Below, one piece after another: positions 18,001 through 24,000 of a stretch of 39,945 nucleotides of DNA. The stretch covers positions 1-39,945 of the forward strand of contig PEAD01000027.1 in assembly GCA_002753335.1 (NCBI GenBank), written 5' to 3'. The stretch comes from Nitrospirae bacterium MYbin3. Its GTDB lineage: Bacteria > Nitrospirota > Thermodesulfovibrionia > Thermodesulfovibrionales > Dissulfurispiraceae. Position 1 is the first letter of the stretch. Each line of letters begins with the position of its first letter. The position numbers were made by a program.

Positions 18001-21000
18001 GCCAAGACATATCAGAGATATGCAGAAGCCCGTCTATCCCGCCTAAATCAACAAATACACCATAGTCGGTGATATTTTTTATTACACCCGACAGCACCGC
18101 ATTTTCTTTGAGAACTTTCAGGGTATTTTCTTTTTGCTTGCTGCGCTCCTCCTCAATAACAACACGCCGGGACAGTATCATGGAAGTGCCCTGAGATCCT
18201 GCTCCCTGCTTCTGCGGGAGCATTTTAAGAATCTTTACTTCAAAAGTTTTTCCTATGTACGAATCAACATCCTTTACAAGCCTAACATCTATTTGTGAAG
18301 CAGGCAGGAATCCTTTTACGCCTCCGCAGTCAACTATCAGGCCGCCCTTTGTCTTGCCTTCTACTACGCATTCTATTGTTGAACTGTTTTGTTGAGCTTT
18401 TGTTAGGGCTTCCCATATTCGAAGCTTTGCGGCCCTGTCTTTTGAAAGATATACCACGCCTTCATGATCATTTATGCGTTCAACAAAAACATCAACCGTA
18501 TCGCCTTCCTTAAGCGAGGCCAGCTCTTTTTCGGTAAACTCGGTGGCAGGAATTATGCCTTCAGATTTATATCCGACATCAACCACAACCACGTCTGACT
18601 TGACGCTTATCACCCTGCCTTTTGTTACAACTCCTCTCTCTACCCTTTGCAGGGTTTCGGCATAAAGCGATTCAATGTCGGCTGTTTCTTCTTTTGGTTG
18701 ACCGTCCATCCTGGCCCATTCCTCCTATTTCCCTGATTCTATCCTGTACTTCTTTTATAATCCAGTCAGGGGTTGAAGCACCTGCGGTAATGCCGACATT
18801 ATTCTTGCCTTTAAACCATACGGCCTTAAGCTCCGAAGCGGTTTCTATATGATAACACTGCACCTCTTTGTCGGCACATAAATGTGCAAGTTGTGTTGTG
18901 TTGGCGCTGTTCCTGCCGCCCACAACAACCATCACATCAACTTTTTTTGCAAGCTCCTCCGTCTCTTTAAGTCTCAGGGCGGTAGAGTTGCATATAGTAT
19001 TGAAAACCTTTATTTCATTGACCTGCCCCATAGCTTCACATACAAATTTCTTCAGGATGCCTATAGGCTGAGTGGTTTGAACCACCACTCCCACCCTGCT
19101 TTTCAGCTTAGGCAAATCATCATCCCGTCCCAAGACAACAACTTCGGCGCCGGCATAGCTCATAAGGCTTTTTACCTCAGGATGCTCTCTGTCACCGATA
19201 ATAAGAACTTGATAACCGTCCTCTTTGAGAAGCTTCGCGTACTGCTGAGCTTTTTTTACAAACGGGCATGTAGCATCTATAACTCTATATTTTTTATTTG
19301 CAAGCCTTTCCGAAACCTCTACAGGAACCCCATGAGTTCTGATTATCAATGTCTTTATCCTGCGGTTATCTATGCTGTCAGAGGGGGCAACGCCTTGAAG
19401 CTTTAGGTTTTCAATAACTTGCGGGTTATGGATTATAGGGCCGAGCGTGAATACATCATCACCTTTTTTCGCCTCGTCAAAGGTCATATCAACCGCCCGT
19501 TTCACACCGAAGCAAAACCCTGCCCGTTTAGCAGTTGTTATGTTCAGTTTATTCCTCATAAAACAGAGATATAGGATACAGGATTGGGGCGCGAATAGGC
19601 AATAGTTTGTTTCGGGCGAAAATGTATGCATTTTAAAGAGGAACCACTATAGGGCCGATTGGCACAGCCGGCCTGATAATCTTTTTACTTTTAGTCCGCT
19701 TTTGGAGTAAAATAACATTCTTTTCTTCAAGATGTTACATTAAATCTTTTAGCTGTGCGAGGAGGTAAAATGGGATATGTCGATGGGCTTAAATGCAGGG
19801 AATGCGGCAGGGAATACCCTGTTGACCCTATATATGTTTGCGAATTCTGTTTTGGACCGCTTGAAGTAATTTACGACTATAAAGCCATAAAAAAAGTCCT
19901 GAAAAGAAAAACCATAGAGAAACGGGACAAAAGCCTTTGGCGGTATAAAGAGCTGCTGCCCATAGACGGAGAGCCGCAGGTGGGCTTGAAATCAGGCTTT
20001 ACCCCGCTCATAAAGGCTGACAATCTAGCAAAAGAGCTGGGAGTAAAAGAACTTTATGTTAAAGACGACACCGTAGCTCATCCAACCCTCTCTTTTAAAG
20101 ACAGGGTTGTGGCTGTTGCCCTTACAAAGGCAAAAGAGTTCGGCTTTGATACGGTTGCGTGTGCATCTACCGGAAACCTTGCCCATTCGGTTTCTGCGCA
20201 GGGAGCTAAGGCAGGGTTCAAAAGATTTGTGTTTATCCCGGCAACTCTGGAACAGAGCAAGATAGTAGCCTCTTTAGTGTACGAGCCTAACCTTGTAGCG
20301 GTGGACGGCAACTATGACGAGGTAAACATAAATTGCAGCGAGATCGCCAACAAATACAAATGGGCCTTTGTGAACATAAACATCAGGCCATTTTATGCAG
20401 AAGGTTCTAAAACACAGGGTTTTGAGATAATCGAACAGCTCGGATGGAAAGCTCCGGACAATGTGGTTGTTCCCTGCGCAAGCGGTTCGCTTCTAACAAA
20501 AGTATGGAAGTCGTTCAAAGAATTTAAAGAGATAGGCATAATTAAAGAGCTTGAAACTAAAGTTTTTGCGGCACAGGCAACAGGCTGTTCGCCGATTTCG
20601 GTCGCTATAAAAAACGGAACTGATGTGATAAGGCCTGTGAAGCCCAATACTGTAGCCAAATCTCTTGCTATAGGCAATCCTGCCGACGGGTTTTATGCGT
20701 CTCAGGTGGTAAAAGAAACCGGAGGCTATGGAGAGGATGTTTCGGATGAAGAAATTATAGCCGGCATTAAACTGCTTGCAAGAACAGAGGGGATATTTGC
20801 AGAAACAGCCGGTGGAGTTACTGTTGCGTCCGCAAAAAAGCTTATCGAACAGGGCAAAATCGGCAGAGACGATACAACGGTTATATGCATTACAGGCAAC
20901 GGGCTTAAAACACAGGAAGCGCTTGCGGGCCACACCTCACAAATGCACCATATATCGCCCAAGCTTGATGCTTTTGAAGAAGTTCTGAAAAAGATACGTG

Positions 21001-24000
21001 GGAAGTAACGATTAGTTTCTTTTAATTTAATTTGGAGGTGACCGTATGGCAGTAAAAGTTAGAATCCCGACCCCGCTTCAAAAGCTGACACAGGGCAGCG
21101 AAGAGGTCGAAGGCAAACCCGGTACAGTGATTGAGCTCATAAACGACCTCGAAAAAAGGTATCCGGGCATAGCCGAAAGGCTTTCGGAAGGCGGAAAAGT
21201 AAGGAGATTTGTAAACCTGTATGTAAACGAAGAGGATATAAGATTTGCACAGGCGGAGCAGACGCTTGTAAAAGACGGTGATGAAGTTTCGATAGTGCCG
21301 GCAATAGCCGGGGGAAGCTGCTGATTACAGGTTTAATCTAAACAGTCAAAAGAATACTTAGGAGGACGCAATGAAAAGGCGTGTGAAGCTGACTTTTCCG
21401 CAAAACCTCATAAAAGAGCCGGTAATTTTTACTATGGCGAAAACATATGACGTTATGCCGAATATCAGAAGGGCTCGGATAACAGACAGCGTTGGAGAAA
21501 TGATACTTGAGCTCGACGGGGCCGAAGACAATGTGGAAAAAGGAATAAAATCGCTCGTAACTCAGGGGATTGATGTGGAGCTGATAGAGGGCGACATAAT
21601 CGAATAAACGGAGATATTTAATTTATGGTGACTGACCGATGCAGCCGTTCTAAAATTTTATGGGGCGGCATAATAGAAGAATACAGAAAGTTTTTCCCGG
21701 TAACAGAAAAGACGCCTGTAATAACCCTGCAGGAAGGCAACACGCCCTTACTGAAAGCGGTTAATTTAACAAAACGACTCAACATAGAGCTGGATCTGTT
21801 TTTAAAATTTGACGGTGCAAATCCGACCGGATCCTTCAAAGACAGGGGCATGACCCTTGCTCTATCCAAGGCCGCAGAGGACAATGCAAAGGCTGTTATA
21901 TGCGCTTCAACAGGCAATACTTCAGCTGCTGCCTCAGCTTATGCTGCCCGCGCAGGCATAAAAGCGATAGTTGTAATTCCGGAAGGCAAGATAGCGCTCG
22001 GCAAACTGGCCCAGGCTTTGATGCACGGGGCTCATGTTCTTCAGCTTAATGGCAACTTTGACGAAGCCCTGAACATGGTAAAAGAGGTGGTATCCAATTA
22101 TCCTATTACACTTGTAAACTCTATTAATCCTTACAGAATCGAAGGCCAGAAATCTGCCGCTTTCGAGATATGTGACCAGCTCGGCTTTGCACCCCGCTAC
22201 CATGCCATGCCGGTCGGGAACGCCGGAAACATAACCGCCTATTGGAAAGGCTACAAGGAGTATAAAACCGAAGGCATTGTTTCTAAAACTCCTGTCATGC
22301 TTGGTTTTCAGGCTGCCGGGGCAGCGCCTTTGGTAAACGGCAAGCCTATCGAAAAACCAGAAACGGTAGCGACAGCAATAAGAATTGGCAACCCTGCAAG
22401 CTGGAAAGGCGCAATCTCGGCGAGAGACGAATCTGGCGGGAAAATAGATGCTGTTACGGACGAAGAAATTTTATCGGCATACAAGCTTATAGCCGCAAAC
22501 GAAGGTATTTTCTGCGAGCCGGCATCCGCGGCATCTCTTGCCGGAGTGCTTAAGCTGTATAAACAAAACTATTTCGAAAAAGGCGAGACTGTTGTGTGCA
22601 CCCTAACCGGCCACGGCCTGAAAGACCCGGACAATGCTATCAAGGTTTCGGGGGAGACTATTAAAGTCAGAGCCGAATTCAATGAGGTAAAAAAAGTGAT
22701 CGAGAGAATTCTTTGAAATTCGTAGTTCTTTTAGGCGACGGAATGGCCGATGTTCCGATCGAAGAACTTGGCGGGCTTACGCCACTGCAAAAAGCATCAA
22801 CACCCAATATGGACAAGCTCGCGCAGGAAGGAATTATAGGCATGGCCCGAACAGTGCCGAAGGGCTTTCCTCCGGGGTCGGATGTGGCCAACCTGAGCAT
22901 ACTCGGATACAATCCTGCGGACTGCTACACAGGCAGAGCGCCTCTTGAGGCCGCAAGCATAGGGGTTGAGCTTGAAGAAGGCGACATCGCTTACCGCTGC
23001 AATCTTGTAACCTTGAAAAATGACGACAGCAAAGTTTCGATGGATGATTACAGCAGTGGCCATATTACAACACCCGAAGCAACAGAACTTATACTTGCGC
23101 TGAAAACAGAACTCGAATCCGAAAACATAAAATTTTATCCGGGCGTGAGCTATAGGCATTTGATGGTCTGGAAAGGCGGAGCGGATGATGTTGAATGCAC
23201 GCCGCCCCACGATATAATCGGCCAGGGAGTTGATAAACACCTGCCCTCAGGCAATAAAGCCGCGTTCTTGATAGACCTTATGAGACGTTCAGAAAAAATC
23301 TTAGCGAATCATCCGGTCAACAAAGAGAGAATAAAAAACAGCAAGAAACCGGCAACCAGCATATGGCTCTGGGGGCAGGGCAGAAAGCCGCAGCTGTCAA
23401 CTTACAAAGAGAAATACGGGCTTAAAGGAGCGCTCATATCTGCCGTGGATTTAACAAAGGGCCTCGGCATTTATGCGGGTTTTGAGATACCCGAGGTTCC
23501 GGGGGTCACAGGCTGGCTCGACACGAACTATTCAGGCAAGGCCGATTATGCGCTCAATACGCTTAAAAAAAATGATTTTGTTTACATACATGTCGAATCG
23601 CCGGACGAGGCAGGACATTCGGGCGATTACAAAAATAAGCTTCAGGCGATAGAGGATTTCGACCGCCTTGTGGTTGGCCCGGTTATGAAAGGTCTTGAAG
23701 AAAGATTCGGAGAGTACAGGATACTCTTGATGCCTGACCATGCAACCCCGATAAAAATCAGAACACATACGGCCGAACCTGTGCCATTTGTTGTTTATGA
23801 CAGCCGCAAAAAACAGAACAATGAAGGGGTTTCATACAGCGAAGCTATTGCAGAAAGAAAAGACATAATGGTTGTTGAGGCCGGATACAGGCTGATGGAT
23901 TATTTAATCAAGGAGGTTTTGATTTAATGCTGATAGTACAAAAATACGGCGGCACCTCGGTCGCCAATGTTGAAAGAATAAAGGCAGTTGCCCAACGCGT

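What a model noticed while it worked through the whole genome (the two positions that open the first line are those of the whole stretch)
19770..23927. Methionine made by MetM/MetO thiocarboxylate route and a MesB core synthase
The first of two 'threonine synthases' (g00592) sits beside a CysO-like sulfur carrier ending in GG-SC (g00593), a NIL protein, ThrC and HomK; with Mec (g01355), MoeZ next to hom (g01337) and a MesB-like synthase (g01979, C46:36204-37217) this gives a folate-independent route from phosphohomoserine to methionine in an anaerobic Nitrospirota lineage.
Evidence so far: Annotations and neighbourhood, conserved in at least 224 of 316 order genomes. No MetY/MetB/MetZ family enzyme in this bin, its sister or a complete relative (2 of 5 tested have one, call 146); no MetH domain in 5 of 5; no DUF39 in 5 of 5. 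g01979 has a weak Meth_synt_2 match (E 0.007, call 142) with H-x-C and C-terminal Cys ligands; the Wood-Ljungdahl genes are present.
(Added by a program. Inside this text positions count along the whole contig: contig position 1 is position 1 of the stretch shown here. "Call 12" and the like, gene names such as g00115 and contig names such as C1 are that model's own, and its searches are not shown. The text may have been shortened before it was handed on; [...] marks where a part breaks off. The agent that wrote the report below was given it as the finding of a first reader that could run no searches.)

Follow-up and report, generated by a model that had tools for sequence, protein, structure and literature searches.

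The report
MetM/MetO methionine route in Nitrospirota
This operon encodes a threonine-synthase look-alike and a small sulfur-carrier protein that closely match a homocysteine pathway described in Streptomyces in 2024, so the bacterium likely makes the methionine precursor that way and likely finishes methionine with a short MesB-type enzyme, a route already partly predicted in print for a relative.

Summary
The first 'threonine synthase' (19770-21008) is 51-56% identical to the enzyme at 30 of 30 Streptomyces loci (second ThrC: 31-34%). Those loci carry the same carrier gene, and 20 of 20 tested carry a SAM riboswitch. The E1 and Mec genes, distant here, adjoin this operon in relatives. The MesB-like protein has the published ligand pattern and a MetE fold, and occurs in 288 of 317 order genomes against 6 for MetH. 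GapMind 2026 already includes the route and lists a Dissulfurispira thermophila Mec; MesB was reported for Nitrospirae in 2021. Corrections: the E1 has no rhodanese domain, so it is not MoeZ proper; the carrier tail is not conserved; 122 of 317 order genomes hold another candidate homocysteine enzyme; 'folate-independent' is shown only for the last enzyme. S. albulus MetM and Dehalococcoides MesB themselves could not be aligned. Still open: the NIL protein and the sulfur donor. The scan noted MetM/MetO/NIL in 123 earlier findings on other DNA.

The parts
19770..21008 (+). MetM-type PLP enzyme (g00592), predicted MetO-thiocarboxylate-dependent homocysteine synthase; 412 aa, N-terminal four-Cys ribbon, PLP lysine K110
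   Evidence: 53% over 403 aa to the SAM-riboswitch-led Nonomuraea enzyme; 51-56% to 30 of 30 Streptomyces loci; tree and diagnostic columns; model pLDDT 93, threonine-synthase fold
20329..20332 (+). Four-base difference giving I187/N188 where homologues have R-L or R-F; assembly error or private change
   Evidence: R-L in 120 of 120 database homologues, including the otherwise identical record P0001, and in 26 of 26 order loci; R-F in 30 of 30 Streptomyces
21046..21324 (+). MetO-type ubiquitin-like sulfur carrier (g00593), 92 aa, Gly-Gly followed by a Ser-Cys tail that would need trimming
   Evidence: PF02597 E 3e-18; 51% to the Nonomuraea carrier; 49-55% to 30 of 30 Streptomyces carriers; tails of 0-28 aa in relatives
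21371..21607 (+). Stand-alone NIL-domain protein, 78 aa; role untested, possibly a methionine-binding regulator
   Evidence: PF09383 E 5e-17; behind the carrier in 30 of 30 loci, fused to it in one; not found in 30 Streptomyces loci
21625..22716 (+). Canonical short threonine synthase (ThrC #2)
   Evidence: TIGR00260 328 bits; only 35% to Nonomuraea and 31-34% to Streptomyces MetM-type enzymes; separate branch in the tree
22713..23927 (+). HomK homoserine phosphotransferase, predicted source of O-phosphohomoserine
   Evidence: TIGR02535 567 bits over cut-off 446, though it also passes the PGM models; D9, S56 and E295, with E aligned to Lys of PGM 2zkt, as GapMind describes for HomK
23927..25153 (+). 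Aspartokinase (lysC), same run of genes
   Evidence: NF005155 620 bits
25154..26722 (+). Citramalate synthase (cimA), end of the run
   Evidence: TIGR00977 802 bits

Best explanation
The window encodes a MetM-type enzyme, its Gly-Gly sulfur carrier, a NIL protein, a true threonine synthase and HomK, and together with a distant E1, Mec and MesB-type gene they likely make homocysteine from O-phosphohomoserine and likely methylate it to methionine from a corrinoid protein. Steps, all inferred from homology and published chemistry: LysC, Asd, Hom and HomK give O-phosphohomoserine (OPHS). Mec trims the carrier to Gly-Gly. The ThiF-type E1 adenylates it, and sulfur from sulfide or a separate persulfide donor gives the thiocarboxylate. 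MetM replaces the phosphate of OPHS with the carrier's sulfur, and homocysteine is released from the carrier (probably by Mec). ThrC #2 takes the same OPHS to threonine. The MesB-type Zn enzyme moves a methyl group from a corrinoid protein, most likely CoFeSP (AcsCD), to homocysteine. NIL likely senses methionine (weakest step).
For: Shown: identity to 30 of 30 Streptomyces MetM/MetO-type pairs, with a SAM riboswitch in 20 of 20 tested. At 103 columns separating Streptomyces MetM from order ThrC #2, the window protein has the MetM residue at 53 and the ThrC residue at 15. It shares a 99-support branch with Streptomyces MetM, apart from both ThrC types (quick tree). hom-E1-mec-metM-metO-NIL-thrC-homK-lysC-cimA is contiguous in G030 and G074; Mec lies behind the E1 in 25 and MetM in 16 of 30 loci. 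The bin has no other known homocysteine route, and has separate ThrC, CysK, cysteate synthase and ThiS genes and no MoaE. Genomes without a strong carrier more often hold an alternative enzyme: 40 of 59 against 82 of 258. G012 has lost both metM and thrC #2 from the cluster and holds plant-type ThrC plus CGS. MesB-like: S15, D176, H217, C219, D238, C312 invariant in 120 of 120 homologues, matching published S15, D177, H214, C216, D235, C311; best fold matches are MetE; present in 288 of 317 genomes, MetH domain in 6.
Against: No activity has been measured for any of these proteins. S. albulus MetM (A0A059WBP2) and DET0516 were not available for alignment. A Microcystis homologue 51.6% identical to MetM was reported to act as threonine synthase/deaminase in vitro and not to function fully as MetM in vivo (PMC12172450). 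No SAM riboswitch was found in this window or in three relatives' clusters. MetM coexists with plant-type CGS in 15 of 16 genomes tested, so the routes are not exclusive. 17 of 46 carrier-less genomes show no known route, four of them at least 96% complete (G091, G174, G253, G254), so exclusion is imperfect. This copy has R187I/L188N at a conserved site. A second corrinoid/MtaA cluster offers other methyl donors and thiol methyltransferases.
Confidence: 0.78

Rival explanations
1. g00592 is a second threonine synthase or threonine deaminase, and the carrier serves something else.
For: It passes TIGR00260; the Microcystis homologue showed threonine synthase and deaminase activity in vitro.
Against: A canonical ThrC lies in the same operon. 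The Ser and Arg of the ThrC 'VNSxNPxR' motif and the Asn of 'PVGN' are replaced as in Streptomyces MetM (N204, Y209, S238; their role in phosphate binding is recalled, not read). The Microcystis assay lacked the carrier. The E1, Mec and carrier cluster with it.
Confidence: 0.08
2. The enzyme and carrier make another sulfur product, such as cysteine from phosphoserine (CysM/CysO-like) or cysteate.
For: Carrier, Mec and E1 are the same parts list as the mycobacterial CysM/CysO/Mec/MoeZ system (recalled); weak cysteate-synthase match.
Against: The genome has a separate CysK (TIGR01139 over cut-off) and cysteate synthase (TIGR03844 468 bits). g00592 scores only 52 bits on CysM and 63 on cysteate synthase. 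Its orthologues sit behind SAM riboswitches, and the cluster holds hom and homK.
Confidence: 0.05
3. Homocysteine is made as proposed, but the methyl group comes from another corrinoid or enzyme (the C37 MtaA/MtaC-like cluster) rather than from CoFeSP through g01979.
For: The bin has two MtaA-like methyltransferases, an MtrH-like protein, a cognate corrinoid protein and an activator. g01979 is not next to acsCD. UroD/MtaA folds rank just behind MetE. CoFeSP as donor is a hypothesis in both source papers.
Against: g01979 has the full MesB ligand set and occurs in 211 of 219 good genomes of an order that nearly lacks MetH. The C37 cluster sits with cysteate synthase and ComDE-like genes, which points to coenzyme M chemistry. 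Its spread in the order was not tested.
Confidence: 0.09

Closest known systems
MetM/MetO/Mec/MoeZ thiocarboxylate route of Streptomyces albulus (Hasebe et al. 2024, AEM 90:e01247-24; not held, seen only as described in PMC13759103, bioRxiv 10.1101/2024.10.14.618325 and PMC12172450)
   Same: ThrC-homologous enzyme directly followed by a GG carrier; JAB protease and E1 present; 51-56% and 49-55% identity to Streptomyces pairs.
   Different: Extra NIL protein; E1 without rhodanese domain; variable carrier tails (Streptomyces GG in 17 and GGC in 13 of 30); no SAM riboswitch; OPHS from HomK; clustered with hom, thrC, lysC and cimA.
GapMind 2026 prediction for Dissulfurispira thermophila (PMC13759103, Table 4: Met step Mec, A0A7G1H0A1)
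   Same: Same route in the same order; the named D. thermophila proteins P0019 and P0186 are 90% and 63% identical to g00592 and g01979.
   Different: The paper lists only the diverged Mec and does not mention NIL for this route (0 hits for 'nil' in the preprint text). I did not check that A0A7G1H0A1 is the orthologue of g01355.
MesB core methionine synthase (Dehalococcoides core-MetE; PMC7005905, PMC7857596)
   Same: About 340 aa, H-x-C...D...C zinc ligands with Asp in place of Glu, Ser15 and Asp176, HxxG at H120; AcsC and AcsD present; Table S1 already lists 4 of 12 'Nitrospirales' proteomes (Magnetobacterium, Magnetoovum) in the column I read as MesB.
   Different: This organism also has CODH and an AcsE-like gene, which Dehalococcoides lacks, so its methyl group need not bypass folate.
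Wolinella succinogenes protein-thiocarboxylate methionine route (Krishnamoorthy and Begley 2011; only the citation was seen; details recalled)
   Same: Carrier with a tail trimmed by a JAB protease, and a stand-alone E1.
   Different: Wolinella uses O-acetylhomoserine and a MetY-family enzyme; here MetX and MetY are absent.

Membership tests
MetM | At least 40% identity to the characterised S. albulus enzyme (GapMind's high-confidence rule) | not testable with these tools
   A0A059WBP2 could not be fetched. Proxy: 51-56% to 30 Streptomyces orthologues that are 80-98% identical to each other.
MetM | Groups with Streptomyces MetM-type enzymes, apart from true ThrC | tested here: met
   Quick tree, 99 SH-aLRT; 53 against 15 of 103 diagnostic columns
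MetM | Adjacent GG sulfur-carrier gene | tested here: met
MetM | Upstream SAM riboswitch (a feature of the Streptomyces operon, not of the enzyme) | tested here: not met
   No Rfam hit in the window or in L240, L241, L243; also absent in Microcystis
MetM | OPHS plus carrier thiocarboxylate gives homocysteine | not testable with these tools
   Needs an assay
MoeZ | ThiF domain fused to a rhodanese domain | tested here: not met
   267 aa, ThiF only; NF005902 293 below 647; passes MoeB subfamily NF004281. It works like the E1 half only.
Mec / JAMM protease | Prok-JAB domain with HSHP motif, linked to the carrier system | tested here: met
   PF14464 E 5e-22; between E1 and metM in relatives; unlinked in this bin
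HomK | TIGR02535 over cut-off, catalytic Ser, Glu where PGMs have Lys | tested here: met
   BT2402 itself was not aligned
MesB | Zinc ligands H-C-D-C and homocysteine-binding Ser and Asp | tested here: met
   Invariant in 120 of 120 homologues; numbering within 3 residues of published DET0516 positions
MesB | Single MetE catalytic barrel without a folate-binding half | tested here: met
   337 aa; top Foldseek hits are MetE, E 1e-9, TM about 0.6
MesB | phmmer score over the published threshold against DET0516 | not testable with these tools
   Sequence not available; the Atlas look-alikes (score 0.97, Chloroflexota, methanogens, Thermodesulfobacteriota) are only a lead
MesB | Genome encodes AcsC and AcsD | tested here: met

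The most novel reading that the evidence does not exclude
Thermodesulfovibrionales run an anaerobic variant of the MetM route in which a rhodanese-less E1 charges the carrier directly with sulfide, and the NIL protein (sometimes made as a cleavable tail of the carrier) is a methionine-binding subunit that steers O-phosphohomoserine between homocysteine and threonine in place of a SAM riboswitch; a plant-type ThrC/CGS pair has repeatedly come in beside or in place of it.
Probability: 0.3. Interest if true: 0.55.

Novelty: new member of a known kind. Interest (0 to 1): 0.27.

Why it matters
It corrects an annotation ('two threonine synthases', 'MoaD', 'hypothetical protein') across most of an anaerobic order and explains how these bacteria could make methionine without MetX, MetY, DUF39, MetH or MetE. 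The chemistry is published and the order is already in GapMind, so a specialist would not be surprised. The useful additions are testable details: the intact hom-E1-mec-metM-metO-NIL-thrC-homK cluster in relatives is a ready cassette for complementation, and the NIL protein and the sulfur donor are open questions.

Tried and rejected
Complex prediction of MetM with NIL gave no answer (score 0.14, mark 0.32); it is not used either way. No sequencing run was listed for the operon, so the R187I/L188N site and expression could not be checked. The Hasebe paper is not held. GapMind supplements held as text gave no Dissulfurispira rows; bioRxiv supplements are closed and may bear on this. PDB holds no MetM; best hits are threonine synthases at about 35%. 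The plasmid search gave one MetM-type record of 187 matches. My expectation that plant-type CGS and MetM exclude each other was rejected: 76 of 258 strong-carrier genomes hold CGS and 15 of 16 tested keep MetM. An 877-aa frame around metM in G251 looks like a chance open frame, not a fusion. An apparent DUF39 hit came from picking the wrong ORF; the right query finds only ferredoxin-like fragments. The careful tree did not finish; the quick tree is quoted. Promoter and terminator scans gave nothing decisive. Paper searches for NIL with this route and for MetM with Nitrospirota listed nothing beyond the papers cited; most subscription journals are not searched. The carrier as MoaD was rejected (no MoaE), and as ThiS (a separate ThiS lies beside thiG).
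Full report
Observation. The window is contig C12 of a bin that is 93.7% complete. The closest named homologues of g00592 come from Thermodesulfovibrionales, including Dissulfurispira thermophila at 90% (P0019). The distant parts are real too: a JAB protein behind gltA on C35, a ThiF-family gene overlapping hom on C35, the 337-aa ORF on C46, and CODH/AcsB/AcsC/AcsD plus an AcsE-like gene on C27.

Is g00592 a MetM? S. albulus MetM could not be fetched, so I used proxies. A Nonomuraea locus has a SAM-I riboswitch, an enzyme 53% identical to g00592 over 403 aa and a carrier 51% identical to g00593; ThrC #2 is only 35% identical to that enzyme. A pattern scan returned 118 loci, 80 with full flanks, of which 30 are named Streptomyces (the pattern selects this enzyme family). 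In 30 of 30, the enzyme is 51-56% identical to g00592 (31-34% to ThrC #2) and is followed by a carrier 49-55% identical to g00593. I gave 20 of the 30 to Rfam and all 20 have a SAM riboswitch, the arrangement reported for S. albulus metM. At 103 columns fixed differently in Streptomyces MetM and order ThrC #2, g00592 has the MetM residue at 53, the ThrC residue at 15 and neither at 35; a quick tree puts it with the Streptomyces enzymes (support 99) apart from short and long ThrC.

Do the scattered genes belong together? Yes, by synteny. Of the 30 best E1 loci (55 of 61 family genomes matched), 25 have Mec and 16 have metM within the 1.5-kb flank, and 24 have hom upstream. In G030 and G074 the whole run lipA-alaC-hom-E1-mec-metM-metO-NIL-thrC-homK-lysC-cimA is contiguous. 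This bin has a split version, and its sister's E1 locus also lacks mec. The E1 is 267 aa with no rhodanese domain and fails the MoeZ model, so the sulfur donor is open. Tails after Gly-Gly run from 0 to 28 residues in 29 of 30 loci, and the thirtieth (G183) is fused to NIL, so 'GG-SC' is incidental and a trimming protease is implied. HomK has D9, S56 and a Glu where a phosphoglycerate mutase has Lys.

Exclusion and distribution. The bin lacks MetH, DUF39, MetX and a true MetY/MetB, and has separate CysK, cysteate synthase and ThiS and no MoaE. Across 317 order genomes the carrier matches in 271; by my own cut at about E 1e-31, 258 are strong, 13 weak and 46 absent. MetY passes its cut-off in 24, DUF39 occurs in 1, and an enzyme whose best PDB match is plant cystathionine gamma-synthase occurs at 70% or more identity to my query in 109, next to or fused with a long plant-type ThrC in the loci I read. 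One of these alternatives is present in 40 of 59 genomes without a strong carrier and 82 of 258 with one (p 5e-7, overstated because kin are not independent). So 176 of 258 have none of the three, or 157 if genomes with 40%-identity lyase-like hits are also dropped. Four of five weak or carrier-less genomes gave only a 28-31% ThrC hit to g00592 and the fifth none. G012 has lost both metM and thrC #2 from the cluster and holds the plant-type pair. Against a neat picture: 15 of 16 carrier-plus-CGS genomes keep MetM, and 17 of 46 carrier-less genomes show no known route.

The last step. g01979 matches in 288 of 317 genomes (211 of 219 good ones), the MetH homocysteine domain in 6. S15, D176, H217, C219, D238 and C312 are invariant in 120 of 120 homologues and fit the published D. 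mccartyi positions S15, D177, H214, C216, D235, C311, including the MesB-type Asp; H120-x-x-G recalls His122 of the characterised enzyme. The model's best matches are MetE structures, with UroD close behind. 'Folate-independent' is fair for this enzyme only. The AcsE-like gene (under its NCBIfam cut-offs, but inside the acs cluster) and CODH suggest that autotrophic methyl groups reach CoFeSP from methyl-THF (inference; metF, fhs and folD were not searched). A second corrinoid cluster on C37 is a rival donor.

What is known. GapMind 2026 (PMC13759103; passages, section 14 and supplement passages read; preprint passages read) includes MetO, Mec, MoeZ and MetM, warns that MetM is often misannotated as threonine synthase, and lists a D. 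thermophila Mec as a predicted Met step needed to explain prototrophy. Price et al. 2021 (PMC7857596; passages and Table S1 read) list core synthases in 4 of 12 'Nitrospirales' proteomes, in the column I read as MesB. Deobald et al. 2020 (PMC7005905) and Price et al. 2018 (PMC5764234) were read as passages. Hasebe et al. 2024 was not seen. The main contrary report is PMC12172450 (passages read): a Microcystis homologue 51.6% identical to MetM acted as threonine synthase/deaminase in vitro, though it was assayed without the carrier and was induced together with it. Earlier notes of this scan already hold MetM/MetO/NIL (123 findings) and the plant-type pair; these are leads, not support.

Caveat on this copy. 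Bases 20329-20332 give I187/N188 where 120 of 120 homologues, including an otherwise identical record, have R-L. An assembly error is likely but could not be checked.

Verdict. A real and well-supported MetM/MetO operon with a likely MesB partner: a new member of a known kind, confidence about 0.78 for the whole route, interest 0.27. The NIL protein and the sulfur donor are what remain worth an experiment.

Noticed in passing
window 1829-3184 (+): 451-aa multi-rhodanese protein read through one in-frame TGA in the motif YCAGPT-U-R, probably a selenoprotein; tRNA-Sec lies at 26769-26862 (-).
   Followed up: partly
G000 C37:168480-180200 (L244): Cluster of two MtaA-like methyltransferases, an MtrH-like protein, a corrinoid protein, an activator, an Fe-S protein, cysteate synthase (TIGR03844 over cut-off) and fused ComDE-like decarboxylase: looks like coenzyme M synthesis and use in a bacterium.
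   Followed up: partly
L054 1462-4017, L083 1489-4050, L053 1468-4015: Plant-type threonine synthase and plant-type cystathionine gamma-synthase as a pair or an 850-aa fusion; the CGS is in 109 of 317 order genomes.
   Followed up: partly
L024 1501-2028 (G183): Carrier fused to NIL behind the Gly-Gly, like a ubiquitin precursor; trimming would free NIL.
   Followed up: no
L246 (G012 C10:27000-42000): E1, mec, carrier and NIL are kept although metM and thrC #2 are gone and the plant-type pair lies elsewhere: recent loss, or the carrier feeds another enzyme.
   Followed up: partly
G091, G174, G253, G254: Genomes at least 96% complete with no carrier, MetY, plant-type CGS or DUF39 match with these queries; assembly gaps or another route.
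   Followed up: no
window 20329-20332: Four adjacent base differences from the sister genome that change a conserved R-L to I-N.
   Followed up: partly
G000 C46:37319-40975 (L005): The MesB-like gene is divergent from an ArsR, TauE-like and selD cluster, and is followed by a Kup-like transporter gene (names from sequence features).
   Followed up: no
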